A stretch of 64,000 bases of DNA from a bacterium (lineage in GTDB: Bacteria > Hinthialibacterota > Hinthialibacteria > Hinthialibacterales > Hinthialibacteraceae), in contig CAXXMV010000002.1 in the NCBI GenBank assembly GCA_963662285.2, positions 192,001 to 256,000 on the forward strand. The letters are read 5' to 3'. Below are positions 22,178 through 49,501 of the stretch, one piece after another (position 1 is the first letter of the stretch; every line of letters begins with the position of its first letter). The position numbers and the translations under genes were made by a program. The notes under the pieces were generated by a model. The model searched no databases and was not told where the DNA came from. It was given only the letters and a program-made list of their open reading frames with translations.

Positions 22178-22222
22178 TATAGGTAGGCATAATCCGAAAC
22201 AAAGAAAAATACGGATAATCCG

Positions 22223-30294: not shown

Positions 30295-30744
30295 ATGAAT
30301 GATGAATCTAAAAGAATAAAAGAAATGCTGCAAGCGCTTTCGTCTAAAGGAAAGGGTCCGGGTGGTGTTCAAACTCTTATTATGATGCTTGGCCAGGTTG
30401 ACCGGGATACGGAAAAAAACATTCTTGACGCGTTGGATAAGCAAAATCCATCTTTGGCCAGCGAACTACGTAAAAAATATTTTACTTTTGAAGATATTAT
30501 GCATATGGAGGATAGTGTACTATTGCGTGCGTTATCGGATGTGCATCGAACCACCTTGGCTTTGGCGCTAAAAGGAACGTCTTTCGAAATACAGGATAAG
30601 GTGTTTCATAATCTATCCAAAAGAGCGGCGGAAATGGTCAAAGATGAGATGGAGGTTATGGGTCCGAAACCCAAAACTCTGGTTGAAGAGGCGCAACGTG
30701 AAGTAACCAAAGAAATTCGCCGTTGGAAAGACGTTATTCTTTAA
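30295..30744 (+). CDS. Stand-alone FliG C-terminal domain protein
   Basis: GG linker, YFTFED (MFxF motif), LALALKG, NLSKRAAEM, GP..VEEAQ; lacks the N and M domains. Confidence 0.82.
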   Translation: MNDESKRIKEMLQALSSKGKGPGGVQTLIMMLGQVDRDTEKNILDALDKQNPSLASELRKKYFTFEDIMHMEDSVLLRALSDVHRTTLALALKGTSFEIQDKVFHNLSKRAAEMVKDEMEVMGPKPKTLVEEAQREVTKEIRRWKDVIL

Positions 30745-32048: not shown

Positions 32049-33674
32049 TCAGTCAAAAATAGTGAAAAGAGACTCAATTTCTTCCGACGGTTTATAGTCA
32101 TGAACGCGACTTAAGACGGAAGATTTAGCAATATTATACAAAACCTTGGCCTGAACCAGATTGGAGCGGTTAAGAGCCAAGTCAATCTGCAAATCCTGCA
32201 AATCGCGGAAAGTGATGTTGCCAAAGTCGCGGAAGTCTATTAGACCGGTGTCAAGGTTGAACTGAGATTGGGTTACGTTGCGCTGGATAATTTCGATGCG
32301 TTGAAGTTGCAGCATCAACTCACGTAAATTCCGGTAGGTGGATTGAACAAGTTGCCGTTCGGTATCCCATAATCTGATTTTTGATTGTTCAAGATTTTCT
32401 TCAAGAGCACGCACTCGTGCGCGAGTCGCTCCACCGTCGCCAAAAGCCCAAGAGAAAATAAGCGCAGCGCCCAAATTCCGGTCGCTTTCGTCATTCTGAT
32501 TGGCAAAGGTTGATAAAACTAAATCCGGTTGTTGACCCAATCGAGCGACGCGGAGGGAATTTTCGGATCTTTTGATCGAAAGGCGCAAGTTTTTCAGGTC
32601 TAAATTGGTTGATGTGACAAGATTGATATATTCATTACTGGCAAGAGGGAGGGGTTTTACCTCTAACTTATCAGTTAAAATCAACTCAGTTTCAAGAGGA
32701 ATCCCCAGAAAGATATTTAAGCTTTCCATGGAATTTCTGAGGCTTCCTTCGAGTTCAATAAGCGAAGCTTGATTATTAAGCACGTCGGTTTGAGCTTGAC
32801 CGACGTCTTTTTGAGCTGCTTTTTCGAACTCATATTGCGTTTCAATAATGAAAGAAACTCGGAGAGATTGAAGCAGGCGTTCTTTTTGAATATCAAGTCT
32901 TTCCTGTAATTGCTGGATGTTCCAATAGCGGTTTATAACAGTCTCTTCAGCGCTTTTTTCCTGGGCGAATAAACTGTAATCGGATTGAATGGCGGCAATT
33001 TTGGAGTTCTCAATTTGGGTTTGAATTTCCTTGCGTGATCTGGAATTAATGGGGTAGCTATAATTTATGTTCAGCTTATATCTGTCTTCGAAATGGTTGC
33101 CTTCAGGATTGTTCGGGCCGCTGTCAAAGGCGCCCTCGGAATAGTGTTGAAAGTCCATCTCTGGTTGAATATCAAGCCTTGAGCCATTCTTGAATGTTTG
33201 AGTATAACTGGGACCAATATTAAACAGAGTATTGTTTTCGTATTCCTTCTTCGTGTCGGTTATTAATCCTTTTTCAGGATCAATACGGAAGGAGCCGGAG
33301 GCGCGTCGACTTATGGTTTCGTCCAATCGAGAATCAAGGCTGTATTTGGAGCGATAATTACTTTCGGTAAGATCAAGGTTGGCCAGGCTGCTTTGTAGAG
33401 CATGTTTATCAATTTGTATATCGGGATTTTGCTTCATTGCGATATCAATGGCGTCTTGAATCGTAATGGTCATTTGCTTGCCTTTGGTTCGGAACTCTTC
33501 ATTTTGGAGTATAGATTCGGCAACGGTGATATCTTCGATTCTCATTCTCGCGGCGGATGCTTTTAATGTAACCGGAGATGGCGCAACAATCTCCTGAGCA
33601 AAAATGGGAGCGGCAATAATAGTAAATAGAAAAATAGATAGACCTTTGGAATAACGTTGTACATTCACACTCAC
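32049..33674 (-). CDS. TolC-like outer membrane efflux protein
   Basis: Signal peptide; ITIQDAIDIAMKQNPDI; two helical/beta repeats; last gene of the RND operon. Confidence 0.85.
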   Translation of the reverse strand: MSVNVQRYSKGLSIFLFTIIAAPIFAQEIVAPSPVTLKASAARMRIEDITVAESILQNEEFRTKGKQMTITIQDAIDIAMKQNPDIQIDKHALQSSLANLDLTESNYRSKYSLDSRLDETISRRASGSFRIDPEKGLITDTKKEYENNTLFNIGPSYTQTFKNGSRLDIQPEMDFQHYSEGAFDSGPNNPEGNHFEDRYKLNINYSYPINSRSRKEIQTQIENSKIAAIQSDYSLFAQEKSAEETVINRYWNIQQLQERLDIQKERLLQSLRVSFIIETQYEFEKAAQKDVGQAQTDVLNNQASLIELEGSLRNSMESLNIFLGIPLETELILTDKLEVKPLPLASNEYINLVTSTNLDLKNLRLSIKRSENSLRVARLGQQPDLVLSTFANQNDESDRNLGAALIFSWAFGDGGATRARVRALEENLEQSKIRLWDTERQLVQSTYRNLRELMLQLQRIEIIQRNVTQSQFNLDTGLIDFRDFGNITFRDLQDLQIDLALNRSNLVQAKVLYNIAKSSVLSRVHDYKPSEEIESLFTIFD

Positions 33675-33712
33675 ATACCTTCTTTCTTTAATCTGGAGAG
33701 AGATTCTAAAAT

Positions 33713-36700
33713 TTATACGGAAATATATGGATCCCTTGTGTGGTAAAGATACGCATCTTCCAGCGTGGCTTCAATGTTAATAGCTTCTGGAGCGGGCTTA
33801 TCGTCAGAAACGATGCGTAAGCAAATGCCATCGGCGGTGTGAGTTTGGCCGCCGACAGAATAAAGTTTCCTGTAACGATGCCATGCAGACTCATCTTCCA
33901 CTATAAGTTCCCAAACCTTGTCATGAATAGATTCAACCAGTTCCTCCGGGTTCCCGGAGAAGAATAATTTACCTTCATCCATTAAAGCCAGACGCCGGCA
34001 ACTATGAGCTACATCTTCAACAATATGAGTTGATAAAATAACAACTCTATCCTGGCTCAATTGGACAAGTAAATTACGGAAGCGCAGACGCTCCATAGGA
34101 TCGAGGCCTACGGTTGGTTCATCAACAATTAATACCTTTGGGGGGAAGACGAATATTTGAGCTAAACCTATGCGGCGCATCATGCCGCCAGAGAAATTAT
34201 TAACGGAGACATCTTTTTGTTCAGATAAATTGACCATTTCGAGAGCGTTTAATATAGCGGCGCGACGTTCTTTTTTGATCTTCATTCCTTTGAGAAGGGC
34301 GAAATAGTCTAAATATTGATAGGCGGTCATGTGGCTATAGACGCCGAAGTTTTGCGGAAGATAGCCAATAAGTTTCTGCGCTTTACGTGATTCGGTTTTC
34401 ATGTCATACCCGCAAATGGATAAAAAGCCGCGAGTCGGTTGATCTATACCTGCGATCAAACGAAGAAGCGTAGTCTTCCCTGCTCCATTTGGACCTAATA
34501 GGCCGAATAAACCGCTTTCGATTTTTAAGGAAATCATATCCAATGCTTTATGCCGAGCGCGCGTAATCACTCTTCTGCTTGATCCGGCAAAAGGCGCCGG
34601 GACAATACCGGTAGCAGGAGAAAGGTTGGGGAGGAAACCGCCGTGTAGCAAAGTTCTGGAAAAACTGGATAATCTTTCAATCCGGCTAACCGGATAAATT
34701 CGGGTTAGGTGATCCAGTTCTACAATAAGAGGCTCTTCCCGTGGCGGCGTTAAGCGATAGGCAGTAAGCGATTGCCGGACGTTAAGGCGTTTTTTGCGGC
34801 TCCAAAAGATGAATATCCATCGCCAGCTGAAAACAAATTTAAAAGCTCTCTTAAACAATCTGCTGATATCTTCAACGATAAAATAGAAACCGGGTACGAT
34901 AACAAGGGTTAATACGGTTGAGCTGGCAAGACCGCCAATGACGCATCGAGCGAATGGAATCCAATCATTGTCTTGTCCTTTCCATTCTATGGCCATGGGT
35001 AGAAGGCCGAGGATGGTTGTTGCCACCGTCATTAAAATGGGGCGGAGACGGTAGTGTCCTGCAACCATAATAGCGCGTTCGCGGGGGTAATTTTTTTCCG
35101 TTCGTAGATAACCGGAGAAATGGACGAGTAATATAGCGCTATTGGGAAGGATGCCAACCAGGAAAACATAGCCCATCGCCGCCATTTCGTTGAAAGGGGT
35201 GTTTGTGAGAATAAACATCCAGCCTATGCCAAAGATAGCTAAAGGAATGGATAAAAAGATGACGAAAGGAAGGCTGAACGATTCGAAAAGAGAAGCGATG
35301 CACATGAAAATTAAGATGCCGGACATCCAGGCAATCATTTTAAATTGTTCAAAGACTTCATTCAGCCGTTGAGATCGTCCACCCAATGTCATGCGATAAC
35401 CTGCCGGGATAGGATATATATCTATTAATCCTATAACGGCTTCCTCAATTTCAGTGAAATTACTGTTGGGAGCGGTTTCAAATCTAATATGGCCAATGCG
35501 TTCGCGGTTTTCACGTCTCATAGACCCCATGCCGCGTTTAATTTCCATGACGCCTAATTCTTTTAAGGTTACAGTGGAACCCATTGAAGGAGAATAGATG
35601 GGGATATCGCTTAATTCCTCGAATTTCATGCCTCCCAAGTCTTCCATATCTTTTTCAAGGTCTTCAGTTTTTTCGATCAAATTAAAAATTATATCAATTT
35701 CCTTGTCGCCTTTTTTCATTTGGATGCTGGCGTAATCGCCCCGGCGCTGAGATAGCTGAATGGATTGAGCAATTAATCTAGGGGTGATTTGCAACAAAGC
35801 AGCTGCATCACGATCAAGCTTAAAATGCGCTTCCAGTGGTCCGGGTTCATTTTCGCTGAATACATCGCGTATACCGGGAATCTGGTTCATAACGGCGGCG
35901 AAATTTTCGGCGATTTCGTTAATTTGATTATATTCCGGGCCGCGAATTTCAATGGAGCCGCCTTGTCCGGAATCGACGACAGGCATTTGATTCTCACCTC
36001 TGGTGCGGGTAGGCGTGAAAGTGACTTCGGCAACAGAGAAATTTTCAAATAAAGGCCGAAGTTCTTCCTTTATGGTTTCGGATTCACGTTCTCGTTCATC
36101 AAGGTCTTTCAGGCGTATGCTAATGTGGGCGGAATCGTCTTGCACCCAGGAGTGAATGTTTTTGGCTTCGGGAACTTTATCTAGCAGAATATCTTCAACT
36201 TGATTTATGACTTCGAGCGTATGATCCTGCTTGGTTCCATTGGGGAGATAAACCCAGACATGGAACCAGCTGCGATCTTCAGGTTCCGCTAAGACATCCC
36301 GGCTTATGTTGCCTAATGTGTAGTAGTAGGTATAAAGGATAAACAGAACGATGGCAAGAAGAAATCTGACGCGGTGCCGAAGGCAGCTCTTAAGAATGGA
36401 ACCGTAATATTTACGAGTCCATTTCATGGTAGGTATTGGAATGCGTTGGAGAAATTTCTTCAAACGATCCGGTGAAGGGGGTGGATCAATTTTATGAGAG
36501 TTGAGTGGAGCATTTGCTTCAAGATTTGAAAGATTTTTATTAAGCGGAGCGGTCCGGGCGCGTTTTTTATCCAGGATCATCATCAAGCGCGAGGTTAGCA
36601 TGGGAACCAAAGTAAGAGCGACAAGCATTGATATGACCATGGGATAGATAATCGCAAGAGCCGCTTCTGTAAACATCAAACGGATAAAACCTTCTACAAA

Positions 36701-38050
36701 GACAATGGGGAGAAAAACAACGACATTGGTCAAGGTAAGAGCAAAAACAGCTTTGCCAACTTCGTTGCAACCTAATACAGCTGACTGGATGCCATTTTTC
36801 CCCCGTTCATGATGTCTAAATACGTTTTCAAGAACTACGATAGAGGTGTCTATCAAACAACCAACGCCAACCGCCAGTCCGACCAAGGTAAACATATTGA
36901 TCGACATGCCGGTGAAGTACATGCCGTTGAAGGTAGCTATAATACAAATAGGAATAACCAGACATACAATCAGCGACATGCGCACATTACGTATAAAGAG
37001 ATATAGCACCAACATGGAAAGCGCAATACCCATAAATGCAAGCCGTGCGAGAGTGGATAACATATCCAGGATGGGAGTGGCGGCATCTGAAGTTACCGCT
37101 AATTCGTAACCATCCGGGAGCGTTTGGTTAATCAAGTCGATAACCTTGAGAGTTTTACGTGATAAGTCGACCGGATTGATCAAGGCTTCTTTTTGCAGAT
37201 TTATGCCTAAGGCAGGTTTACCGTCGACTCGGCGAAGCCAGCGCCGGGCATGGAAAGTATCTTTAACTTCTCCCAGGTGGCGGACGGCGATGCCGCCGTT
37301 GTTTTTCACCACGACATCTTCAATTTCAGAGGTATCGCCGAATTGTCCATCCAGCCGGACGAATAGATCTTTGCCTTGTTCTTCAATATCGCCGAGGAAA
37401 ACCGGTTCATTGGCGAAAGTCTGGACTCTATTTCTAACCTGCCAAATGGGAGTCCCGAATTCCTGCAATCTGTCCTGGAGAACGGTGATATCTATCGAGC
37501 GTCTTTTACCTCCCCAAATTTCGGCAGTGGCGATGCCGTCTATATCTTCGAGTTGTTGGCGAATCTTGTCTGCGTTTATTGCTTCCAGGTAGGGATCAGA
37601 TCTGGGACCTTTCAATACCAGATCCATGAAATCACTATTAAAATGCGAAGTTTCGAAAGGAAAAGCATTCATATATATAGAACGTTTAGGGAATGTTTTT
37701 TGAAAACGATCCAAGCGTTCCTGCAAATCGACAATACGGTATTTGACGTTTGCGCCAAATTCGAATTCGATACGGAAGAATGCTCCATGTCGAAAGGTAT
37801 AAGTATAAATATTCTTAACATCTTGGAGTTGAGCGATTTCCCCTTCGACAGGGATGATGATTTTTCGTTCTAATTCTTCCGCACTCATATGTTCCATTAT
37901 GCGGCAAAACGCTCCGCCGCCAGGAACCGTGATATCCGGCAGGATCTGCATGGGAAGTTTGAAATAAGAGACGAAACCGAGAATAACGATCGCGGAAAAA
38001 AACATGATCGTGGTAATAGGTCGATGAACGGCGATACTGGATAGTTTCAT
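33713..38050 (-). CDS. RND (AcrB-like) permease fused to a C-terminal ABC ATPase domain
   Basis: IAVHRPIT, IDTSIVVLENVFRH, RLRPILMT, GGLASSTVLTL; then GPNGAGKTT, FSGGM, LIVDEP, STH; single frame; likely ATG at 38050. Confidence 0.9.
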   Translation of the reverse strand: MKLSSIAVHRPITTIMFFSAIVILGFVSYFKLPMQILPDITVPGGGAFCRIMEHMSAEELERKIIIPVEGEIAQLQDVKNIYTYTFRHGAFFRIEFEFGANVKYRIVDLQERLDRFQKTFPKRSIYMNAFPFETSHFNSDFMDLVLKGPRSDPYLEAINADKIRQQLEDIDGIATAEIWGGKRRSIDITVLQDRLQEFGTPIWQVRNRVQTFANEPVFLGDIEEQGKDLFVRLDGQFGDTSEIEDVVVKNNGGIAVRHLGEVKDTFHARRWLRRVDGKPALGINLQKEALINPVDLSRKTLKVIDLINQTLPDGYELAVTSDAATPILDMLSTLARLAFMGIALSMLVLYLFIRNVRMSLIVCLVIPICIIATFNGMYFTGMSINMFTLVGLAVGVGCLIDTSIVVLENVFRHHERGKNGIQSAVLGCNEVGKAVFALTLTNVVVFLPIVFVEGFIRLMFTEAALAIIYPMVISMLVALTLVPMLTSRLMMILDKKRARTAPLNKNLSNLEANAPLNSHKIDPPPSPDRLKKFLQRIPIPTMKWTRKYYGSILKSCLRHRVRFLLAIVLFILYTYYYTLGNISRDVLAEPEDRSWFHVWVYLPNGTKQDHTLEVINQVEDILLDKVPEAKNIHSWVQDDSAHISIRLKDLDERERESETIKEELRPLFENFSVAEVTFTPTRTRGENQMPVVDSGQGGSIEIRGPEYNQINEIAENFAAVMNQIPGIRDVFSENEPGPLEAHFKLDRDAAALLQITPRLIAQSIQLSQRRGDYASIQMKKGDKEIDIIFNLIEKTEDLEKDMEDLGGMKFEELSDIPIYSPSMGSTVTLKELGVMEIKRGMGSMRRENRERIGHIRFETAPNSNFTEIEEAVIGLIDIYPIPAGYRMTLGGRSQRLNEVFEQFKMIAWMSGILIFMCIASLFESFSLPFVIFLSIPLAIFGIGWMFILTNTPFNEMAAMGYVFLVGILPNSAILLVHFSGYLRTEKNYPRERAIMVAGHYRLRPILMTVATTILGLLPMAIEWKGQDNDWIPFARCVIGGLASSTVLTLVIVPGFYFIVEDISRLFKRAFKFVFSWRWIFIFWSRKKRLNVRQSLTAYRLTPPREEPLIVELDHLTRIYPVSRIERLSSFSRTLLHGGFLPNLSPATGIVPAPFAGSSRRVITRARHKALDMISLKIESGLFGLLGPNGAGKTTLLRLIAGIDQPTRGFLSICGYDMKTESRKAQKLIGYLPQNFGVYSHMTAYQYLDYFALLKGMKIKKERRAAILNALEMVNLSEQKDVSVNNFSGGMMRRIGLAQIFVFPPKVLIVDEPTVGLDPMERLRFRNLLVQLSQDRVVILSTHIVEDVAHSCRRLALMDEGKLFFSGNPEELVESIHDKVWELIVEDESAWHRYRKLYSVGGQTHTADGICLRIVSDDKPAPEAINIEATLEDAYLYHTRDPYISV

Positions 38051-38091
38051 TGTAATTAATCTGCGTCTGACGACAGCCTCGCTAAGTTCTA

Positions 38092-40833: not shown

Positions 40834-40872
40834 CCTAATTTATTCCTTTCGCTTAACCTTTGGATGGTGGAA

Positions 40873-43800
40873 TCAGGCTTCCTGATGTTCCACTTCAACG
40901 CTTTGCGTCCCAAATAGCGAAAATAGTTTGTATATAATCTGTACTGCATCTTCAAATAGGCTGTAAACAACAGGGATGATAAGTAATGTCAAGATGGTGG
41001 AGGACAACAATCCACCGATAACCGCTATGGCCATCGGGGCCCGGATTTCGGCGCCTTCTCCGAAGCCCATAGCCAGAGGTAAAAGAGCCAGAACCGTAGT
41101 TAATGTTGTCATGAGGATGGGACGCAAACGACGGCATCCGGCCCGGACAATGGCGTCAAACATTTCCTCGCCTTCGTCCCGGCGGAGATAATTAATGTAG
41201 TCGACAAGCACAATTGCGTTGTTGACGACGATGCCGGCCAGCATAATGATGCCAATGTATCCCATCAAATTTAAGGTTTGCCCGGTTAGATAAAAAGCCC
41301 AGATTACGCCCACTGCGGCGAGAGGCAGTGAAAACATGATAACGAATGGATGGAGAAGAGATTCAAATAACGACGCCATAACCATATATACAAGAACCAG
41401 TGCGAGAACCAGTGCGAAGGCGAGTCTTTCAAAAGATTCACGTCTACGCTGCTCTTCTCCACCGAAATTTATATAATAATTGCTTGGTGGTTGAATGTTT
41501 CCAATACTCTCTTGAACCGCTCCAACCGCATCGCTCAGTTTTTGACCTTCAGCCACGTCCGCCAGGACTCGAGCGATACGTTCCTGCTCCCGGTGTAGTA
41601 TTTCCCGTGGTCCGGGTTGAATATCCACATCGACCAGGTTGCCCAGAGTAACGGCTTGGCCATTTCCTGTCGGAATTAGAGTGTTGAGCAGTTCGGGCAG
41701 GTTCATTTCTCCATCACCCAGTTGAACGCGGATGGCTTTAGTTTGATCAACGTCCTGCAGGTTGGTGGCTACCATCCCGCGTAATTGGTTGGAGACAAGT
41801 GTTATTAACTGTTGTTGATCAAGATCGTATTCATTCATAAGAATACGGTCCGGGATAAGGTGCACTTCTGGATTCCCATCGAGGATAGTGGTTCGAATAT
41901 TGGCCAATTCGGCCAAAGTATCCATTTGGGCTTTTACATCTTTAGTAAGGTTGGTTAAGGTTTCTAAACTACGTCCTTTAATTTCAACGACGATAGCGGC
42001 TTTTTCGCCTCCGATTAATGTAGCAAGGGAAGTTTGAGACATAAGAAAGGTCAGTTCCAACTTATGTATTTGCTTTGCTCGCGGCTCTAAATATTCTATT
42101 ACCTGTGGTACGGATAGCGAGGAGCCATTTTTGAGTGAAACGAGCATTTCCGCCGTATGCGAACCTTCAGGTTCTTCATCAATGGCGCCGGTGTCGTTGG
42201 GCTTGGGGCCAATGCGGGTGAAAATATGATCGATGTGCTGTCCCAAATCTTGTGAAAGCCAACCTTCGATGCTTTTCGCGGCTTGTTCTGTTGTTTCCAG
42301 CTTGGAACCGGGCGGCAAGCGTAATTTAACAATGAATTGTGATTCGGCGGCTTGTGGAATAAATTCCTGTTTGATTTCTTGAAGCAAGGGATAAACAGAC
42401 AAACAAGCCAGTGAGATAAATAAACAAGTAATAAAGCGGTGTCGCAACGAGAAGGCTAAAAAGGAAGCGTAGATTCCGCCTTGCGTGTCGGAACGCGCCT
42501 GGGGAACTTTTTTCAAGTAACGGGAGCATAATGCAGGGATCATAATTAATGCAACAACTAATGATGTAAGCAAAGAGAAGACAACGGTTAAGGCTTGTTC
42601 CTTAAATAATTGCGCTGTAACGCCGCCCATATAGGCAATAGGGACGAAAACAACTACGGTAGTAAGGGTTGCGGCGGCGATGGCCGAAGCAACTTCTCCG
42701 GCGCCAATCATGGCGGCATCAGAAGGAGAGTCGCCTAGTTGCCGACGGCGAAAGATGTTTTCGATAACAACAATGGCATTATCCACTAACATGCCTGCCC
42801 CTAAGGCCAGGCCGCCCAAAGTCATGATATTGAGTGAAAGATCCATAAAATACATCAGGTTGAAAGTTGCTAAAATGGATACTGGAATAGCTAAAGCAAC
42901 AATGATGGTTGAGCGGATATTTCTTAAAAAAATCAAAAGAATTAATGATGCTAATCCAATGCCCTGAAAAGCAGTGTTCTTGACCTCTGATATTGAGCGG
43001 TTGATGAACAGCGATTGGTCATAAGCGACTTCCAGAGTTAAATCTTTGGGAATTATGCTGGTTTCCTGTCTTAGTCCAAATCCCCCTGCCATGCCTCTAT
43101 TACTGACAGGCTGGAGTTTATCTTGATCTTTGCCAAGAAAGTCACGGACAGATTTAACGACGTCAACCGTGTTTCCGCCAGCTTCTTTGTATAAAGCGAT
43201 GCCAACGCCGGGATTATTATCCATCCGTACCATATCTACCGGTTCTTCAAAACTCCACTTTGCTTCGCCCACATCGGTAAGATAAATGGGAACGCCGCCG
43301 GAATAACCAACGACGCATTGGGCGACCTGTTCGATATCTTCGATTTCGCCTATAGCCCTGATCATATAGCGCTGATTACCCTCTTCAACATATCCGCCGG
43401 AAGCGCTGACATTGGCTTGATCCAAGGCCTGTGAAATAGCTGGTATGGAAAGACCATAAAAATGGAGCAATTCGGGATCGAGCATACAATGGATTTCGGG
43501 GATTAATCCTCCGGTAACTTCGGCGCGGGCTACTCCCTTAATTCGTTCCAGGGCCGGGCCGATGGTACGTTCGCAGAGATAACGCAATTCTTCTAAATTA
43601 CGTTTTCCATATAATCCCAATGTCATAATGGGTAATGCGTTTGGATCGTAGCGATAAGCCGTTATTTCTTCGATTTCATCAATACGGCTGCCCTGGGTAT
43701 TCTTCTTAACTTCGAGCATGGCGAAGTTCATATCGGTTCCCCAGTTAAAATCGACGATTATGGCGCCTGAATCGGCGCGGGAAACGCTGGATACTTTATC

Positions 43801-44133
43801 GACGCCCGAGATAGTCTTTAATCGTCCTTCTAGAGGCTCAATGACGATTCTTTCTATTTCCTGGGGCGCCAAACCGGGAGCGTCGGCCATTACGGTTATT
43901 CTGGGGGCCCTTAGATCGGGGAATAAGTTGGTCGGTAATTTGCTGAGTGATATCCAACCCAGCATAATAATGCCTACAAAAAACATGCTGACCGTTACAG
44001 GGTATTTTACTGCGAATGCCGCGGCGCCCATTCCTCTACGAAGAAGGCCGCCATCTTCAATAGAACCATCTTGCGGTTGGCCAGCAACTTCTGAAGTTGC
44101 TTGATTTAAATTTTCTTTTTCACGATTATCCAT
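40873..44133 (-). CDS. RND (AcrB/SwrC-like) permease
   Basis: GMLVDNAIVVIENIFRR, GIVVNNAIVLVD, RLRPILMT, PMAIAVIGGL. Confidence 0.93.
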   Translation of the reverse strand: MDNREKENLNQATSEVAGQPQDGSIEDGGLLRRGMGAAAFAVKYPVTVSMFFVGIIMLGWISLSKLPTNLFPDLRAPRITVMADAPGLAPQEIERIVIEPLEGRLKTISGVDKVSSVSRADSGAIIVDFNWGTDMNFAMLEVKKNTQGSRIDEIEEITAYRYDPNALPIMTLGLYGKRNLEELRYLCERTIGPALERIKGVARAEVTGGLIPEIHCMLDPELLHFYGLSIPAISQALDQANVSASGGYVEEGNQRYMIRAIGEIEDIEQVAQCVVGYSGGVPIYLTDVGEAKWSFEEPVDMVRMDNNPGVGIALYKEAGGNTVDVVKSVRDFLGKDQDKLQPVSNRGMAGGFGLRQETSIIPKDLTLEVAYDQSLFINRSISEVKNTAFQGIGLASLILLIFLRNIRSTIIVALAIPVSILATFNLMYFMDLSLNIMTLGGLALGAGMLVDNAIVVIENIFRRRQLGDSPSDAAMIGAGEVASAIAAATLTTVVVFVPIAYMGGVTAQLFKEQALTVVFSLLTSLVVALIMIPALCSRYLKKVPQARSDTQGGIYASFLAFSLRHRFITCLFISLACLSVYPLLQEIKQEFIPQAAESQFIVKLRLPPGSKLETTEQAAKSIEGWLSQDLGQHIDHIFTRIGPKPNDTGAIDEEPEGSHTAEMLVSLKNGSSLSVPQVIEYLEPRAKQIHKLELTFLMSQTSLATLIGGEKAAIVVEIKGRSLETLTNLTKDVKAQMDTLAELANIRTTILDGNPEVHLIPDRILMNEYDLDQQQLITLVSNQLRGMVATNLQDVDQTKAIRVQLGDGEMNLPELLNTLIPTGNGQAVTLGNLVDVDIQPGPREILHREQERIARVLADVAEGQKLSDAVGAVQESIGNIQPPSNYYINFGGEEQRRRESFERLAFALVLALVLVYMVMASLFESLLHPFVIMFSLPLAAVGVIWAFYLTGQTLNLMGYIGIIMLAGIVVNNAIVLVDYINYLRRDEGEEMFDAIVRAGCRRLRPILMTTLTTVLALLPLAMGFGEGAEIRAPMAIAVIGGLLSSTILTLLIIPVVYSLFEDAVQIIYKLFSLFGTQSVEVEHQEA

Positions 44134-44196
44134 CAGAGATCCTTCTGTTTAGACTATACAAAATTGAACAAATCCATATCAGGAACACCATTAAAC

Positions 44197-45042
44197 CTAT
44201 GTAAACCACTTGGACGTTTGCCGTAATTGGCGGAAAAGATAATCTAATACAAATCCAGCCAATACCAGAACAAATATTCTGTTAAAAATTATGGAAAATA
44301 AGGGTGAATTTCTTGAAATTACGCCCGGGGGAAGAATCGGATTGGCGAACAGTTCGATAGGGCCGATAGAGCGCAACCAGAAAAAATGGACGCCCAAAAT
44401 AAGCAGTGATACTAATCCGGTAGCAATTCCATGTTTGCAAAAGGTTGATACTAATATTGTTATGGAACCAACAGCAAAAGATGTTGTGGTTAACAGTAGA
44501 ATTATGGTCCATCGCCCTTCGGTATATGCGCTGAAGTAGCTGAAAAACAATATTACCAGAACGCTAAAAATTAGTTGCCAAAGGGTTACTGTAACAAGTT
44601 GAAGAACAATCAATGCGCCGCGACGAATTGGTTGGCTCCAAAGAATTTCCAGTGTTCCATCATCCCTTTCACGGGGTAATATGTTCATGCATAGTAAAAC
44701 CATAACTAGCGAGAAATAGATGTAGCAATAATATAAGAGCTCATGCATATTCTGGCCATGGTTTTGGGTTACTACCCAGCCAAAAAAAGCTAATGCTCCA
44801 ATTAGCGCAAGAAAGGATTCGATGCGTAGAAAAAGCCGGGAAGTAAAAAGAAATAATTTGAACCAATAAGAAATCTCTCTGAAACTCCATTTTACGGCGT
44901 GGAAAAAAGTTGCTATGATCCAATATATATTCTGGCCTAGTACGATAAAGAGTGAAAGAAAACCTTTCCACGCACGTTTAATAAGACCTGGCGGCATGCT
45001 GGCGGAAGCAGGAAGTTTTTCTAAATTATCCAATGAATCCAT
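44197..45042 (-). CDS. ABC-2-type permease
   Basis: About 6 TMs, ERDDGTLEILWSQPIRR motif. Confidence 0.8.
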   Translation of the reverse strand: MDSLDNLEKLPASASMPPGLIKRAWKGFLSLFIVLGQNIYWIIATFFHAVKWSFREISYWFKLFLFTSRLFLRIESFLALIGALAFFGWVVTQNHGQNMHELLYYCYIYFSLVMVLLCMNILPRERDDGTLEILWSQPIRRGALIVLQLVTVTLWQLIFSVLVILFFSYFSAYTEGRWTIILLLTTTSFAVGSITILVSTFCKHGIATGLVSLLILGVHFFWLRSIGPIELFANPILPPGVISRNSPLFSIIFNRIFVLVLAGFVLDYLFRQLRQTSKWFT

Positions 45043-45053
45043 GGTTCATTTCC

Positions 45054-45932
45054 CTATGCAGCTTGTGAATCGGTGTTTAGAAATCGGATATATGCATCTT
45101 CCAGATTAGGCGCCACATTGTGCGCGTTCTCTTTAGGAGGCGTTGGCGAAATAATGCGGAAGCAAATGCCTTTTATGTCTTCACGGATAGAGACCAGATT
45201 CTTACTGCCGGTGAAGGTCTCTACGTCATCTGCATCGCCATAAAATTCCCAGGTTTGTTCATTTGCGGCTCTCACGAATTCAGAAGGAGAGCCATGAAAG
45301 TGGATGCGACCATCCAGCAGCAACGCTAATTTACTGCATGTTTCTTCGATGTCTTTAACAATGTGGGTAGAAAGAATGACAATTCTATTCTGTCCCAATT
45401 CAAACAGTAAATTTCTGAAATGGATGCGTTCTTCAGGGTCAAGTCCTGCGGTTGGCTCATCGACCACGATTAGTTTAGGATCGTTTATCAGAGCTTGAGC
45501 GATGCCGATGCGTCGCAGCATCCCGCCGGAGAAAGTTTTCAGGCGTTTATGAGCTACTTCGGTAAGACGTACAGCAGCCAACAATTCATCGATATTGCGA
45601 CGCAGATTGCGACCATACATGCCGCGTAGACCGCCGAGATAATTGAGGAATTCTCTAGCAGTCAATTCTGGAAAGTAGCCGAAAAATTGTGGTAAATATC
45701 CTAGCAAGGGACGAATTTTACTTGCTTGTTTACGGCTATCGAAACCATCGATTAGAATTGTTCCAGAAGTCGGTTCTAACAGCTGGGTTAAAATTTCCAT
45801 CAAAGTTGTTTTTCCGGCGCCGTTTGGACCCAGCAATCCGAAAAGACCATCTTTTATATGGAGGTCGATTTCCTTCAGGGCTTGATGTCCGTCGGGATAT
45901 ATTTTAGAAAGATCTTTACAAATCACTTCCAT
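45054..45932 (-). CDS. ABC transporter ATP-binding protein
   Basis: GPNGAGKTT, GYLPQ, FSGGM, IVVDEPTAGLDP, STH, NLEDAY. Confidence 0.95.
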   Translation of the reverse strand: MEVICKDLSKIYPDGHQALKEIDLHIKDGLFGLLGPNGAGKTTLMEILTQLLEPTSGTILIDGFDSRKQASKIRPLLGYLPQFFGYFPELTAREFLNYLGGLRGMYGRNLRRNIDELLAAVRLTEVAHKRLKTFSGGMLRRIGIAQALINDPKLIVVDEPTAGLDPEERIHFRNLLFELGQNRIVILSTHIVKDIEETCSKLALLLDGRIHFHGSPSEFVRAANEQTWEFYGDADDVETFTGSKNLVSIREDIKGICFRIISPTPPKENAHNVAPNLEDAYIRFLNTDSQAA

Positions 45933-45986
45933 AATGGGTGATCTCCGAAATAGGCGCAGAGAAAGCGGTATTACGAAATTTTAAAA

Positions 45987-46006
45987 GCCGCGTTTGAAGA
46001 CGCGGC
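45987..46006 (-). terminator. Intra-operon hairpin after the adaptor gene
   Basis: GCCGCGT-CTTCAA-ACGCGGC followed by TTTT on the minus strand. Confidence 0.6.
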
Positions 46007-46033
46007 GAATATTTATCATAAGCAGCATGGCTA

Positions 46034-47566
46034 TTATTTTGCGTCGGATTCAGTGGTTGTTTTTGTGGAATCATCTCCACTAAGGAATTCCTCATCGCGA
46101 ATAGTGATATTGATGTCAACATCATCGGTTAGCGTTTCATATCCTAATACTACAAGAAGATCGCCTTCTTGCAGACCGTCGATAATTTCAATTTTTTCAC
46201 GATTCTCTATACCGACGGTAACCACTCTCTCCTCGGCAATAAGATCAGGTTCTTCTTTTTTAACTGGTTCTTCCTCTTCATCAAACAGTTCTTCGTCAGT
46301 TGCATCAGAGATATCATCAGTAGCGGCTGCAATTTTAGGGGAAATATCTTCGGCGGCGGATGCTGTTTTTTCAAAACCTTTATTCGAAGCTAAAGGAATT
46401 TTTTCGTTTGAAGGTTGATCATCGTTTGTTTGGGGCAATTGCAATTCTTCGGTTGCGCTTTTAACTTCTTCTTCGATGGGTTTTTCCTTTGCAACAAAGA
46501 CAACCTGGCGGTTGTTGCGTAGAAGCACCAATTCCCGTGGGATGCTTATGGAATCTAATCTCTCTTCGGTAATTATCCTTGCTTTGGCGAACATACCCGG
46601 CCGTAATTCGTGGGCGGGATTATCTACCAGAACATTGACGGTATAGGTTCGGGTGGTTGAGTTGAGCGCGGTGGAGATATCAGCGATTTTGCCGATATAA
46701 ACCATAGCGGATTTGGTATAGACTTCGAGTTCTACCTGTTGTCCAATTTCCACTTCGACAAGATCTTTGGCTGGCACATCAAGCGCCACATAGACCTTGT
46801 CGATATTTGCCAATCGGCAGAGAACGGTGCCTTGAGCAATGGTTTGACCATTAAATAATGTCAAATCAGTCTCTTCGGTGGATCGTTGGGCTATGGAGAC
46901 ATTTTGCCGGGCTGGCAGAAGAACGCCGCTATATGGGATTACAATGGGAACTTTTTCTTGATCCTGCTTGATTCTTTGTAATTCCATTTGTCTGGAACGA
47001 ATCGTTTTCAAGGTAGACTCAAAAGCATTTTTTCTTTGTATTCTGGCAAGAATCGCTTGATCATACTCATATTTGGAGATAGCGCCGCGTTCGAACATCG
47101 CTTGCTTAAATGCTTCATCTTTATAAGCTTGCGCCAAGTTAGCGCTGGCTGGATTGATCTCTGCTTTGGCTGATTCAAGTTGCAATTCAGATATTTCAAT
47201 ATTCCGGTTTAATTCACGCGCATCCATTCTGGCCAGGATTTCGTCTTTTTTAACTTCGTCGCCTTCCAGCCATTTCTGCGTATAGTAAATACGGCCAGAC
47301 ATTTCAGGTTTGATTTCCAGTTCTTTAATAGGGACGACAGTTCCTCTGGCCTGGAGATAGGCAAACATTCTGCCGCGGGTAACGCGTTCTACGGTTACAG
47401 GTATTTTGAATTTGGGTTTTTGAGGTTTACCAAAATTTCCACCGGGTTTTCCTTGTGAAAGTTTACTGCCCTGCCCCGCTTTGTTGGATTTTCCCCCGAA
47501 ATATCCGCAACCAGTGATTAAAGCGATTCCAAGCGTAAGAATTAAAAAACTGCGCACCATTTTCAT
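46034..47566 (-). CDS. RND periplasmic adaptor (membrane fusion) lipoprotein
   Basis: LITGC lipobox; IKPEMSGRI..EGDEVKK lipoyl half; coiled hairpin; LRPGMFAKA; IEIIDGLQEGD. Confidence 0.9.
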   Translation of the reverse strand: MKMVRSFLILTLGIALITGCGYFGGKSNKAGQGSKLSQGKPGGNFGKPQKPKFKIPVTVERVTRGRMFAYLQARGTVVPIKELEIKPEMSGRIYYTQKWLEGDEVKKDEILARMDARELNRNIEISELQLESAKAEINPASANLAQAYKDEAFKQAMFERGAISKYEYDQAILARIQRKNAFESTLKTIRSRQMELQRIKQDQEKVPIVIPYSGVLLPARQNVSIAQRSTEETDLTLFNGQTIAQGTVLCRLANIDKVYVALDVPAKDLVEVEIGQQVELEVYTKSAMVYIGKIADISTALNSTTRTYTVNVLVDNPAHELRPGMFAKARIITEERLDSISIPRELVLLRNNRQVVFVAKEKPIEEEVKSATEELQLPQTNDDQPSNEKIPLASNKGFEKTASAAEDISPKIAAATDDISDATDEELFDEEEEPVKKEEPDLIAEERVVTVGIENREKIEIIDGLQEGDLLVVLGYETLTDDVDINITIRDEEFLSGDDSTKTTTESDAK

Positions 47567-48196: not shown

Positions 48197-49501
48197 TCAA
48201 AATTTAGACCTGATTTTCATAAGTCTTGGGAAGGCTAGTTTTTTCAATCTGTCAGGGATGAGAGTTTCTGCATTATTAAATAATTCTATCGCTAGTTTTT
48301 TGTCGTGTTCCAGGGTAAGAAGGGCGTCTTTGATGATGGGCGCCGCCGGGAAGCCAAAAAACCAGCCGCCATACAACTCAAGGATTTCATCAACAGTTGG
48401 CTGCGGCGACCATGATAACATCGACCAGGCGAAACGGGCAATTTCATCTGTCGAGGATGTTGAATAACCCAAGGCGCCATAAGTCAGTGGGGCGTGATCA
48501 AAAAAACGCCGGGCTAATGTTGTTATAGAATTATTTTTCTCAGAAAGATGATTCATGCTAATTAACTGCATGGTTAATGGCATTTCCCGTTTAATCATTT
48601 CGAATGGGCCGCTACTTGGTCCATAAACAATTGTTTTTACATTGTTGTTATTTGTAGAGCATAATTCATAAAAAATCTCATCTAATTCATCTTCCTGAAA
48701 ACCATCTATTCCTAACCATAATTCAGCTAAATTTGGATTATTAGCAATAGATTTAGTGAATCCAGCGAATTTATCTAAATAAACTTTTGGTGAATGGATA
48801 TCCGCTGGTTTGGATTTGAACCATGAAATAGCTGGATTTTCAGGGAAAGAATAGCCGGTTTTATGGTCTATGCCAATTAATAACGATTGTTGATGTTTTT
48901 TTATCAGGTTTATATCATGTTGAGTTAAACAATCCGCATTAAAACCACAGGTGTTATTGCCCCATAATGCATGGTTGGTAATTAATTCGCTGGGTATATT
49001 ATTCTGATTATCAGGCTCACTATTTGTAAATTTAGAGAAATAACACCCGCGTATCGGGATCAGAGGCTTAAAATTCTGGTTTACTGGATTCAGCTGAAGA
49101 CTATTGTCGCCAAACTGCATGAAGCGCAGTAGTATTCCCACGCCGTTAAACAACGATTTTTCCGAACCGCAAACAATTAAGACCTTAAAAATACCATCAT
49201 CTTGCAGGGTTCTTATATTTATATGTTCTGCATAATCGGGGTAGGGCAGCAATTTAAGGGGTAGTTCGATTTTGCTTTGAGTTTCGTTAAAGAGCGTTTC
49301 TAATGTTTCTATCTGGATTTGGAGCGTGTTGTCATCTTTTCTTGATGACGAATCTCTTTGAATAATTTCGCAGGGACAGTCTATACGTAGGCGGATTTCA
49401 GATTGGAGTAATTGAGCAGCGGTAGTATATTCTGATGGGGCGGCGTCTGGAACGAGGATTTCTATTACGTCATCAGTGGAGTTAAGATTAATCATGGTCA
49501 A
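48197..49501 (-). CDS. Hypothetical protein, possibly a degenerate glycoside-hydrolase-like fold
   Basis: AAQLLQSEI, GSEKSLFNGVGILLR, IRG pattern reminiscent of GH20/GH67 N-domains; weak. Confidence 0.55.
   Translation of the reverse strand: MTMINLNSTDDVIEILVPDAAPSEYTTAAQLLQSEIRLRIDCPCEIIQRDSSSRKDDNTLQIQIETLETLFNETQSKIELPLKLLPYPDYAEHINIRTLQDDGIFKVLIVCGSEKSLFNGVGILLRFMQFGDNSLQLNPVNQNFKPLIPIRGCYFSKFTNSEPDNQNNIPSELITNHALWGNNTCGFNADCLTQHDINLIKKHQQSLLIGIDHKTGYSFPENPAISWFKSKPADIHSPKVYLDKFAGFTKSIANNPNLAELWLGIDGFQEDELDEIFYELCSTNNNNVKTIVYGPSSGPFEMIKREMPLTMQLISMNHLSEKNNSITTLARRFFDHAPLTYGALGYSTSSTDEIARFAWSMLSWSPQPTVDEILELYGGWFFGFPAAPIIKDALLTLEHDKKLAIELFNNAETLIPDRLKKLAFPRLMKIRSKF

What the first reader, a model, noticed from the sequence alone, without database searches (positions are those of the whole stretch)
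32049..47566. Seven-gene hybrid RND-ABC export machine
Seen: a co-directional, tightly spaced operon in the order adaptor lipoprotein, ABC ATPase, ABC-2 permease, RND, permease plus M1-like domain, RND plus ABC ATPase, TolC. Known: RND pumps (AcrAB-TolC) are proton-driven and ABC-2 exporters are ATP-driven; they are normally separate systems. Inference: the gene set gives exactly two NBDs and two ABC TMDs (a heterodimeric ABC transporter) and two different RND protomers (a heterotrimer, as in MdtBC). One NBD is covalently attached to an RND protomer. This suggests a single supercomplex in which the ABC module loads or energises an RND-TolC conduit, perhaps for a peptide, lipoprotein or polymer. 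I know of no characterised system with this architecture.
Basis: partly seen in the sequence, partly recalled or inferred. Interest (0 to 1): 0.9.

Follow-up and report, generated by a model that had tools for sequence, protein, structure and literature searches.

The report
RND pump fused to ABC transporter
A seven-gene operon encodes an envelope-spanning efflux machine in which a proton-type RND pump is covalently joined to the ATPase of an ABC transporter, a widely conserved but apparently unstudied design that mixes two energy sources normally found in separate pumps.

Summary
Seven co-directional minus-strand genes at 32049-47566 encode a lipoprotein adaptor, an ABC ATPase, an ABC-2 permease, an RND pump, a permease fused to an M1-aminopeptidase-like domain, an RND pump fused to a second ABC ATPase, and a TolC-like channel.

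The RND-ATPase fusion is real. All 120 best database relatives carry both domains, and their source names cover at least eight phylum-level groups.

All seven components recur in two different gene orders:
- Type A is the window's order. It is complete in 15 of 20 loci fetched from relatives.
- Type B is complete in 4 Bacteroidota genome loci and 5 metagenome loci.

Trees separate RND1 from RND2 and NBD1 from NBD2 across phyla.

New details:
- The M1-like domain has the M1 fold but no HExxH zinc motif, and it is predicted to be periplasmic.
- Both ATPases keep all catalytic motifs.
- Both RNDs keep the D407, R971 and T978 equivalents but lack D408 and K940, as do stand-alone paralogues.

Physical assembly, RND stoichiometry, substrate and energy coupling remain untested inference. 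Six full-text searches found no description. I rate it a new variant of tripartite efflux, of high interest.

The parts
46034..47566 (-). Periplasmic adaptor (MFP) lipoprotein, 510 aa, with an acidic low-complexity insert near the C-terminus
   Evidence: HlyD_D23 77.9 bits. TIGR01730 RND_mfp 145.4 bits, above the 94.9 cut-off. Signal peptide plus lipobox LITGC read from the translation.
45054..45932 (-). NBD1, a free-standing ABC ATPase of 292 aa (DrrA/GldA/NodI-like, the ABC-2 class)
   Evidence: ABC_tran 108.4 bits. The best NCBIfam models are GldA and DrrA, both below their cut-offs. Walker A, Q-loop, FSGGM signature, Walker B DE and H-loop are all intact. It is 45% identical to NBD2.
44197..45042 (-). 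TMD1, an ABC-2 permease of 281 aa
   Evidence: ABC2_membrane_2 35.3 bits, above the 27.2 cut-off. Seven hydrophobic segments. Homologous to the small membrane protein that follows the fusion gene in type B loci: hhalign probability 96.1%, E 3.4e-9.
40873..44133 (-). RND1, a stand-alone RND permease of 1086 aa
   Evidence: ACR_tran 768.6 bits. The best solved relative is MdtB, 9lyq_B, E 1.7e-101. Residues at AcrB positions 407/408/940/971/978 are D/N/N/R/T.
39889..40833 (-). TMD2, residues 1-315 of the 913-aa protein: a divergent ABC-2-like membrane domain with a seventh helix
   Evidence: AF2 helices and hydropathy. The only recurring Pfam families among 21 orthologues are ABC-2 ones, all below their cut-offs. 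JGI names an orthologue as a NosY-type permease.
38095..39888 (-). M1-aminopeptidase-like pseudo-peptidase domain, residues 316-913, predicted to be periplasmic
   Evidence: Foldseek E about 1e-19 to M1 aminopeptidases. hhalign to E. coli PepN: probability 64%, E 6.4e-5. HExxH is absent in 32 of 32 orthologues; M592-P-G...E600-N601 is conserved where GAMEN lies in M1 enzymes.
34871..38050 (-). RND2, the RND permease part of the fusion protein (residues 19-1078; the ORF as called starts at TTG 38104)
   Evidence: ACR_tran 551.8 bits at residues 22-1077. It is 32% identical to RND1 over residues 19-516. Relay-position residues are D/T/N/R/T.
34724..34870 (-). Conserved linker between RND2 TM12 and NBD2 (residues 1079-1127), with the motif SWRWxFxFW...LTAYR
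   Evidence: Invariant S, R, W, F, W, R, T and Y columns in 13 of 13 orthologues. The structure was not resolved: the AF2 model of the tail had pLDDT 58.
33716..34723 (-). NBD2, an ABC ATPase fused to RND2 (residues 1128-1463), with a ~45-aa insert between the first two strands
   Evidence: ABC_tran 95.0 bits. All catalytic motifs are intact in 13 of 13 fused NBDs.
32049..33674 (-). Outer-membrane factor (TolC-like), 541 aa
   Evidence: OEP 89.6 bits in two stretches. TIGR01844 63.9 bits, below its cut-off. An N-terminal hydrophobic signal segment is present.

Best explanation
The operon encodes one conserved seven-component export system spanning the cell envelope. SHOWN: it contains two RND paralogues (RND1 and RND2), one lipoprotein adaptor, one TolC-like channel, and the parts of one ABC-2-class transporter. 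Those parts are two catalytically intact ATPases (NBD1 free, NBD2 covalently fused to the cytoplasmic C-terminus of RND2) and two different permeases (TMD1 and TMD2). TMD2 carries a large domain, predicted periplasmic, with an M1-aminopeptidase fold that has lost its zinc motif. INFERRED: NBD1/NBD2 and TMD1/TMD2 form a heterodimeric ABC-2 exporter that is held beside the RND pump by the NBD2 tether. ATP hydrolysis moves a substrate out of the cytoplasm or inner membrane. The catalytically dead M1-like domain binds the substrate in the periplasm; a peptide-like molecule with a free N-terminus is my guess. It then passes the substrate to the RND porter domains, and the RND pump uses proton-motive force to expel it through the adaptor and channel. 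This would be a hard-wired two-step relay. The RND pair may form an MdtB2C-like heterotrimer holding one copy of RND2, which would supply one NBD2 per ABC dimer.
For: The fusion is real and ancient. All 120 best relatives of the NBD region in the 804-2561 aa length class carry PF00873 plus PF00005, and their source names cover Hinthialibacter, Omnitrophota, Aminicenantes, KSB1, Chlorobi, Zixibacteria, Calditrichaeota and Latescibacterota. ESM Atlas clusters of 64-143 members carry both domains in 100% of members. In the window's relatives, full-length fusion matches occur in 17 of 19 genomes of the same family and 4 of 6 genomes of the same order; the other 2 are cut by contig ends. The gene set travels together. 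15 of 20 fetched loci have all seven genes in the window's order; 3 of the other 5 are cut by contig ends. A second order (NBD1, TMD-M1like, OMF, MFP, RND1, RND2-NBD2, small TMD) is complete in 4 Bacteroidota genome loci and 5 metagenome loci. Its small TMD is homologous to the window's TMD1 (hhalign probability 96%, E 3.4e-9). Keeping the set while the order is shuffled argues for functional dependence. Trees give an RND2 clade (support 0.98), an RND1 clade (1.0) and an NBD1/NBD2 split (0.98) across phyla. ATPase motifs are intact in 24 of 24 NBDs. The RND D407, R971 and T978 equivalents are kept in 26 of 26 sequences, which fits retained proton coupling. The M1 fold lacks HExxH. Seven helices and arginine-rich loops put that domain in the periplasm. 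There is one adaptor gene and one OMF gene for both modules. HAE-1 heterotrimers exist (MdtBC; passages read in PMC8277102).
Against: Nothing here shows physical assembly, stoichiometry, substrate or energy use. TMD2 matches ABC-2 Pfam models only below their cut-offs, and its profile does not significantly match TMD1. One genome has a lone second copy of the fusion gene without the partner genes nearby (L123), so the fusion protein may work in other contexts. Gene adjacency is contradictory about which NBD pairs with which TMD: the window has NBD1-TMD1 and TMD2-NBD2, while type B has NBD1-TMD2 and NBD2-TMD1. The system is sporadic in Bacteroidota (2 of 301 sampled genomes, with only two candidates scored per genome), so it is accessory there. 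Peptide binding by the M1-like domain is a guess. It rests on a 64%-probability alignment of the GAMEN region.
Confidence: 0.5

Rival explanations
1. Two separate pumps share parts. An ABC-2 transporter and an RND pump each use the same adaptor and TolC-like channel independently, for different substrates or conditions. The fusion would then only ensure co-expression, co-localisation or matched amounts.
For: The operon has one MFP gene and one OMF gene. Tripartite pumps driven by ABC or by RND transporters both exist and can share TolC (passages read in PMC8277102). E. coli YbhFSR is an ABC-2-type efflux system (abstracts seen in the listing). Both energy modules look intact.
Against: A covalent fusion kept in a monophyletic clade across phyla, and retention of all seven parts through a complete gene-order change, are more than co-expression needs. 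If fused RND2 sits in a trimer, NBD2 cannot move away from it, so the ABC unit must work right beside the RND.
Confidence: 0.2
2. ATP-powered or ATP-gated RND. The NBD dimer acts on the RND itself, directly or through the ABC-2 TMDs as a mechanical coupler. ATP hydrolysis would then drive or license the RND transport cycle in place of, or in addition to, protons.
For: The NBD is attached to the RND, not to an ABC permease. Both RNDs lack the D408 and K940 equivalents of the AcrB proton-relay triad in 26 of 26 sequences, and single substitutions at these sites change AcrB (passages read in PMC8277102). The linker is strongly conserved.
Against: The same D-[N/S]-N pattern occurs in stand-alone RND paralogues of the same genome that have no NBD (L014, L017), so it is a subfamily trait and not a consequence of the fusion. 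The D407, R971 and T978 equivalents are invariant. RNDs have no known coupling helix for an NBD. Two dedicated ABC-2 TMDs are always co-inherited, which gives the NBDs their usual partners.
Confidence: 0.15
3. An envelope-building or envelope-stress machine rather than a drug pump. The ABC-2 module would extract a lipid, lipopeptide, lipoprotein or misfolded envelope polypeptide (as Lol, Lpt or NosDFY-type systems do). The RND and OMF would then deliver it to, or across, the outer membrane.
For: ECF sigma factors lie next to the system in 3 loci: L027, which also has two Spy/CpxP-like LTXXQ proteins, L032 and L123. JGI names an orthologue of TMD2 as a NosY-type permease, and relatives' weak Pfam matches are to ABC2_membrane_2; that this is the NosY/GldF family, whose members work with periplasmic partners, is recalled. 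A non-catalytic peptidase fold suits binding of a polypeptide end.
Against: No biosynthetic or cargo gene is conserved next to the operon; the window's flanks are unrelated. The ECF link is seen in only a few loci and not in the window itself. Both RNDs are closest to HAE-1/MdtB-type drug pumps.
Confidence: 0.12
4. Artefact: the RND-NBD fusion is an assembly or frameshift error that joins two neighbouring genes.
For: The genome is a draft of 8 contigs. One relative (G028, locus L125) shows RND2 and NBD pieces in separate frames.
Against: The frame is open for 1463 codons. More than 100 independent proteins of 1400-1590 aa from many studies have the same architecture. 21 related genomes carry a full-length match, with no stop in 18 of them and a single stop in 3. 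The linker is conserved.
Confidence: 0.01

Closest known systems
MdtABC-TolC (E. coli; MuxABC-OpmB in Pseudomonas): RND pump with two different RND subunits
   Same: Two RND paralogues sit in one operon with a single adaptor. RND1's best solved relative is MdtB. HAE-1 heterotrimers such as MdtBC are documented (PMC8277102, passages read).
   Different: MdtABC has no ABC genes, no NBD fusion and no M1-like protein. MdtB and MdtC keep D407, D408 and K940, whereas both RNDs here have D-[N/S/T]...N. RND1 and RND2 form their own clades apart from MdtB and MdtC. Heterotrimer formation was not tested here.
MacAB-TolC: ABC-driven tripartite efflux pump
   Same: An ABC ATPase works with an adaptor and a TolC-type channel, and the permease has a large periplasmic domain.
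   Different: MacB has the FtsX/MacB fold with its NBD fused to its own permease (PMC8277102, passage read). Here the permeases are ABC-2 class, no FtsX or MacB_PCD family was hit, and the NBD is fused to an RND.
YbhGFSR (E. coli): ABC-2-type efflux system encoded with an adaptor-like protein
   Same: It has two different ABC-2 permeases (YbhS and YbhR) plus two NBDs (abstract of PMC13739795 seen in the listing). That an MFP-like gene, ybhG, lies in the operon is recalled.
   Different: Its two NBDs are fused to each other in YbhF, not to an RND. It has no RND, no OMF gene and no peptidase-like domain.
NosDFY and GldAFG: ABC-2 complexes of the NosY/GldF permease family that act through a periplasmic partner (recalled, not checked in a paper here)
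   Same: Relatives of TMD2 give their weak Pfam matches to ABC2_membrane_2. JGI names an orthologue as a 'multi-copper enzyme maturation permease'. NBD1's best NCBIfam model is GldA. A large periplasmic module is coupled to the permease.
   Different: All scores are below the family cut-offs. The periplasmic module here is an M1 fold fused to the permease. RND, MFP and OMF are part of the set.
M1 zinc aminopeptidases (PepN, ERAP1, IRAP, puromycin-sensitive aminopeptidase)
   Same: The beta-sandwich plus thermolysin-like fold matches over about 590 columns, E about 1e-19. A conserved MPG...EN motif lies where GAMEN does, and the RGExLFRMLHHxxGD stretch aligns to PepN's KGAEVIRMIHTLLGE.
   Different: There is no HExxH-18-E zinc site (0 of 32 orthologues; 1 of 44 in the wider set). 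By the alignment and my recollection of PepN's catalytic Tyr, that Tyr is not conserved. The domain is anchored to an ABC-2 membrane domain and predicted periplasmic. It is therefore not a member as an enzyme.

Membership tests
RND superfamily, HAE-1-like (AcrB/MdtB type) | ACR_tran domain covering the whole length | tested here: met
   PF00873 scores 768.6 bits for RND1 and 551.8 bits for RND2, covering about 1020 of 1021 model positions.
RND superfamily, HAE-1-like (AcrB/MdtB type) | Proton-relay residues D407, D408, K940, R971 and T978 (AcrB numbering; PMC8277102) | tested here: not met
   D407, R971 and T978 are present, but D408 is N/S/T and K940 is N in 13 of 13 RND1 and 13 of 13 RND2 sequences. 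Two stand-alone paralogues in the same genome have the same pattern, so this is a divergent subfamily.
MdtBC-type heterotrimeric RND | Two RND paralogues co-encoded with one adaptor | tested here: met
   RND1 and RND2 are 32% identical and each forms a clade across phyla. There is a single MFP gene.
MdtBC-type heterotrimeric RND | Assembly into a mixed trimer of fixed stoichiometry | not testable with these tools
   The complex exceeds the size limit of complex prediction, and no experimental data exist.
ABC ATPase (ABC-2 / DrrA-GldA class) | Walker A, Q-loop, signature, Walker B Asp-Glu and H-loop | tested here: met
   GPNGAGK[TS], YLPQ, [FYL]SGGM, [IV]VDEPT and STH[IV] occur in 24 of 24 NBD1 and NBD2 sequences. 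ABC_tran scores 108.4 and 95.0 bits.
ABC-2 permease | Match to an ABC2_membrane Pfam model above its cut-off | tested here: met
   For TMD1: ABC2_membrane_2 scores 35.3 bits against a cut-off of 27.2.
ABC-2 permease | The same test applied to TMD2 (N-terminus of the 913-aa protein) | tested here: inconclusive
   The window's TMD2 gives E 0.09. Among 21 orthologues, ABC2_membrane_3 hits 6, _2 hits 4, _5 hits 4 and _4 hits 2 at E <= 0.1 (best 2.2e-5), all below their cut-offs. There is no PDB sequence hit. hhalign against TMD1 is not significant.
M1 aminopeptidase | M1 fold (N-terminal beta domain plus thermolysin-like catalytic domain) | tested here: met
   Foldseek gives 192 PDB hits at E <= 0.001; the top hits are PSA, ERAP1/2, IRAP and PepN at about 1e-19. 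The model has pLDDT 84.
M1 aminopeptidase | HExxH-x18-E zinc-binding motif | tested here: not met
   HExxH is absent in 32 of 32 close relatives and 43 of 44 wider relatives. PepN's HEYFH aligns to H637-D-N-F-Y641, with H present in only 22 of 32.
RND-type periplasmic adaptor (MFP) | TIGR01730 / HlyD_D23 match above the cut-off | tested here: met
   TIGR01730 scores 145.4 bits against 94.9; HlyD_D23 scores 77.9 bits against 30.
Outer membrane factor (TolC/OEP) | Two OEP repeats | tested here: met
   PF02321 scores 89.6 bits in two stretches. The TolC and NodT NCBIfam models score below their cut-offs.
MacB-type (FtsX-fold) tripartite ABC pump | FtsX/MacB permease fold and MacB periplasmic core domain | tested here: not met
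   No FtsX or MacB_PCD family appears among the Pfam hits of any of the seven proteins.

The most novel reading that the evidence does not exclude
This is a genuinely hybrid-energised transporter. ATP hydrolysis by the NBD1/NBD2 pair, transmitted through the covalent tether and the conserved Trp-rich linker, drives or gates the conformational cycle of an RND pump whose classical D408/K940 proton relay is incomplete. That would make it the first primary-active, or dual ATP plus proton-motive-force, RND system. Its dead M1 peptidase domain would act as a periplasmic receptor that grips the free N-terminus of a peptide or polypeptide cargo.
Probability: 0.15. Interest if true: 0.95.

Novelty: new variant of a known kind. 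Interest (0 to 1): 0.8.

Why it matters
Tripartite efflux pumps are taught as either proton-driven (RND, MFS) or ATP-driven (ABC). Here one polypeptide joins the two classes. It is kept by selection together with a fixed set of six partners in lineages from Bacteroidota to several candidate phyla. If the modules cooperate, this is a natural, hard-wired version of the proposed two-step efflux route: inner-membrane transporter to periplasm, then RND to the outside. It would offer a direct handle on how RND pumps acquire periplasmic substrates and on how the two energy sources can be combined. It also adds a large family of membrane-anchored M1 pseudo-peptidases with no known role. At least one cultured carrier exists (Labilibacter sediminis CG51, locus L027), so the questions can be tested.

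Tried and rejected
Loss of proton coupling as a signature of the fusion. Both RNDs lack the D408 and K940 equivalents. Stand-alone paralogues L014 and L017 in the same genome show the same pattern, so I dropped this as evidence.

Complex prediction on TMD1 + TMD2(1-315) + NBD2(1120-1463). The verdict was 'no answer': score 0.33 against a control at 0.47. It is evidence neither way.

AF2 of the fusion tail (residues 900-1463, alignment A6). The model had pLDDT 58 and pTM 0.31, too poor to say anything about the linker.

Promoter and terminator scan. It found 31 promoter-like sites against 34.9 expected and 19 terminator-like sites against 17.1 expected. That gives no information on operon boundaries.

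The look-up of sequencing runs. No RNA holder was listed. The two DNA holders come from one sample of one study and are probably the source sample.

The search for related loci in genome contigs with the fusion alignment A2. The patterns chosen were universal NBD motifs, so 74 of the 80 loci were generic ABC ATPases. The useful ones were L025-L028, L032 and L049.

Searches for TMD relatives. Profile searches of TMD1 and TMD2 against PDB sequences gave nothing, and hhalign of TMD1 against TMD2 was not significant.

G028 (locus L125) as an 'unfused ancestor'. The locus is GC-rich and full of frame breaks, so I cannot tell a split gene from sequencing errors.

Bacteroidota prevalence. The figure of 2 of 301 is a lower bound, because only two candidates per genome were scored.

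Literature. Searches found no paper on an RND-ABC fusion or on the permease/M1 architecture. The Hinthialibacterota paper PMC9324843 has no occurrence of RND, efflux, TolC, ABC-2 or aminopeptidase (find mode). Subscription journals and TCDB could not be searched.

Rows dropped:
- Alignment A3 took 44 mostly full-length proteins: 6 and 38 from the top of the list. Fragments were left out.
- The RND tree unintentionally included four non-RND ORFs. Three are TMD-M1-like proteins and one is unknown (L028_20627). They acted as an outgroup, and the tree was midpoint-rooted.
- The NBD tree lacks NBD1 of L120, lost to my length filter, and NBD1 of L049, cut by the contig end.
- A6 used 12 of the 19 relatives' fusion genes. 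The other 7 were mis-registered on the RND internal repeat by my script.

Full report
**What is there.** The window carries seven co-directional minus-strand ORFs that fill 32049-47566 exactly. The gaps between them are 101, 11, 63, 39, -13 and 38 nt.

Domain scans identify them in order:
- A periplasmic adaptor: HlyD_D23 77.9 bits, and TIGR01730 145.4 bits against a cut-off of 94.9. It has a lipobox LITGC.
- An ABC ATPase, NBD1: ABC_tran 108.4 bits. Its nearest NCBIfam models are GldA and DrrA.
- An ABC-2 permease, TMD1: ABC2_membrane_2 35.3 bits against a cut-off of 27.2.
- An RND permease, RND1: ACR_tran 768.6 bits.
- A 913-aa protein with no family hit.
- A 1463-aa protein with ACR_tran at residues 22-1077 (551.8 bits) and ABC_tran at residues 1189-1331 (95.0 bits).
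- An OEP/TolC-type channel: 89.6 bits in two stretches.

The fusion ORF probably starts at M19 (ATG at 38050). Relatives align only from about residue 18 and the closest homologue is 1445 aa. That removes the apparent 13-nt overlap. Flanking genes are unrelated: a TRAP transporter, CheD, a FliG_C-only protein, an M29 peptidase, HflX and MiaA.

**The 913-aa protein.** Its close relatives (33 proteins including itself) are almost all unnamed.
- An AF2 model built on 32 of them has pLDDT 84 and pTM 0.79.
- It shows about seven membrane helices (residues 1-312), then a beta-sandwich, a helical domain and a second beta-sandwich.
- Foldseek against the PDB returns M1 aminopeptidases (puromycin-sensitive aminopeptidase, ERAP1/2, IRAP, PepN) at E about 1e-19 over about 590 columns and 10-14% identity.
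- In a Pfam scan of ten wider relatives, three reach Peptidase_M1 above its cut-off, two carry Golvesin_C and four have no hit; the ABC2_membrane_2 matches of two of them are below the cut-off.
- The zinc motif is gone. HExxH is absent in 32 of 32 close relatives and 43 of 44 wider relatives.
- A profile alignment to E. coli PepN (probability 64%) places HEYFH on H637-D-N-F-Y641, and H is present there in only 22 of 32 sequences.
- A motif M592-P-G...E600-N601 is invariant or nearly so at the position where GAMEN lies in M1 enzymes.
- Seven hydrophobic segments, an Arg/Lys-rich N-terminus and an Arg/Lys-rich loop between helices 6 and 7 place the M1-like domain in the periplasm. This is inference from hydropathy.
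- The membrane part on its own reaches only sub-threshold ABC-2 models. Among 21 orthologues, ABC2_membrane_3 hits 6, _2 hits 4, _5 hits 4 and _4 hits 2 at E <= 0.1, and no other family recurs.

I read this protein as a divergent ABC-2 permease fused to a periplasmic M1 pseudo-peptidase.

**The fusion is real and widespread.** I searched the NBD region among proteins of 804-2561 aa. All 120 listed hits carried both PF00873 and PF00005, and most were 1400-1590 aa. Source names included Candidatus Hinthialibacter (72% identity), Omnitrophota, Aminicenantes, KSB1, Chlorobi, Zixibacteria, Calditrichaeota and Latescibacterota. The ESM Atlas holds several clusters of 64-143 members in which 100% carry both domains.

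In the window's own lineage, which is probably Hinthialibacterota judging only from the names of the best hits, full-length fusion matches occur as follows:
- Same family: 17 of 19 genomes.
- Same order: 4 of 6 genomes, and the other 2 are cut by contig ends.
- Other families of the class: none of 9 genomes shows an intact fusion. One of them, G028, has a frame-broken locus.

The 50-residue linker is conserved (SWRWxFxFW...LTAYR).

**The gene set is conserved in two orders.**
- Type A is the window's order. Of 20 loci fetched from relatives, 15 have all seven genes in this order. Three are cut by contig ends, one is a lone second copy of the fusion gene, and one is the frame-broken G028 locus.
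- Type B reads NBD1, TMD-M1like(-Golvesin_C, 1113-1168 aa), OMF, MFP, RND1, RND2-NBD2 (1572-1637 aa), small membrane protein. It occurs in Bacteroidales MAGs and in the cultured Labilibacter sediminis (complete in 4 genome loci), and partly in a Pseudomonadales MAG whose locus is cut by the contig start and shows no OMF. It is also complete in 5 metagenome loci retrieved with a Zixibacteria fusion protein, and 5 more of those loci are cut by contig ends.
- The small membrane protein of type B is homologous to the window's TMD1: hhalign probability 96.1%, E 3.4e-9, 189 columns. The same seven components therefore survive a complete reshuffling of gene order.
- FastTree gives an RND2 clade (n=13, support 0.98), an RND1 clade (n=13, support 1.0) and an NBD1/NBD2 split (0.98) across these phyla. 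The duplication and the fusion therefore predate the spread.
- In a sample of 301 Bacteroidota genomes only 2 had the fusion. This is a lower bound.
- Type B fusion proteins carry two extra hydrophobic segments after TM12 and four inside the NBD insert. These are even numbers, so the NBD stays cytoplasmic. This is by hydropathy only.

**Energy modules.** All 24 NBD1 and NBD2 sequences examined keep Walker A, Q-loop, signature, Walker B Asp-Glu and H-loop. Neither ATP site is degenerate.

At the AcrB relay positions 407/408/940/971/978 (defined in PMC8277102, passages read), all 13 RND1 and 13 RND2 sequences read D-[N/S/T]-N-R-T. D407, R971 and T978 are kept; D408 and K940 are not. Two stand-alone RND paralogues of the same genome have the same pattern, so this does not show loss of proton coupling.

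**Interpretation.** The shown facts are the inventory (2 NBD, 2 TMD, 2 RND, 1 MFP, 1 OMF), the covalent tether, the co-inheritance and the dead peptidase fold.

The most economical model is a single machine. A heterodimeric ABC-2 exporter is held next to an RND pump, which may be an MdtB2C-like heterotrimer containing one RND2. The exporter hands a substrate, via the periplasmic M1-like domain, to the RND-adaptor-channel conduit.

The rivals are:
- two pumps sharing an adaptor and a channel;
- an ATP-driven or ATP-gated RND;
- an envelope-stress or envelope-assembly exporter.

The last rival is hinted at by ECF sigma factors next to three loci, and by two Spy/CpxP-like LTXXQ proteins upstream in Labilibacter. 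None of these can be separated by sequence alone. The single docking job gave no verdict, the AF2 model of the tail was poor, and no RNA data were found.

**Comparison and novelty.** The system shares the two-RND, one-adaptor layout with MdtABC. It shares the ABC + adaptor + TolC idea with MacAB, and the ABC-2 heterodimer with YbhFSR. It differs from all three by the RND-NBD fusion and the permease-pseudo-peptidase.

Annotation pipelines already label such proteins; JGI, for example, uses 'multidrug efflux pump subunit AcrB/ABC-type multidrug transport system ATPase subunit'. Six full-text searches and the large 2021 review of tripartite pumps (find mode only) gave no description of the architecture.

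I rate it a new variant of a known kind (tripartite efflux), real and conserved, with an untested mechanism of high interest.

Noticed in passing
window 21587-23817 (+): An ECF sigma factor (196 aa), an unassigned 172-aa ORF and a MucB/RseB-like protein (359 aa) sit together, like a sigma-E/RseA/RseB envelope-stress module. It lies about 8 kb from the efflux operon. No link between them was tested.
   Followed up: no
L027 767-2948 (Labilibacter sediminis): Directly upstream of the type B operon lie an ECF sigma factor and two LTXXQ (Spy/CpxP-like) periplasmic proteins. An ECF sigma homologue is also near the operon in L032.
   Followed up: partly
L123 7156-13935 (G020:C97): This is a lone second copy of the RND-NBD fusion gene, without ABC-2, MFP or OMF genes nearby. 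It is preceded by an ECF sigma factor, a single-pass protein with a Cys-rich N-terminus (anti-sigma-like) and a secreted 390-aa protein of no known family. The same genome also has the full operon (L122).
   Followed up: partly
L027 13139-17869 and other type B fusion proteins: Type B fusion proteins have about two extra hydrophobic helices after RND TM12 and about four more inside an insert between the first two strands of the NBD. That would be an ATPase domain with its own membrane anchor. This rests on hydropathy only.
   Followed up: no
L125 (G028:C12:160000-179999): A genome from another family of the same class has the same gene kinds in the same order, but RND2 (1144-aa frame), the NBD and the M1-like gene are split over several frames. 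This could be sequencing errors, pseudogenes or a truly unfused form.
   Followed up: partly
window 30295-30744 (+): A 149-aa ORF consists only of a FliG C-terminal domain (108.4 bits). It sits next to a 339-aa ORF with a weak POR_N match. This is an odd stand-alone fragment of a flagellar switch protein.
   Followed up: no
window 48197-49501 (-): A 434-aa ORF lies on the same strand 630 nt upstream of the adaptor gene and has no Pfam hit. I did not examine whether it belongs to the operon or is conserved there.
   Followed up: no
type B TMD-M1like proteins, e.g. L027 3988-7353: The Bacteroidota-type permease/pseudo-peptidase ends in a Golvesin_C domain (57.6-68.1 bits). The window's protein lacks it.
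   Followed up: no
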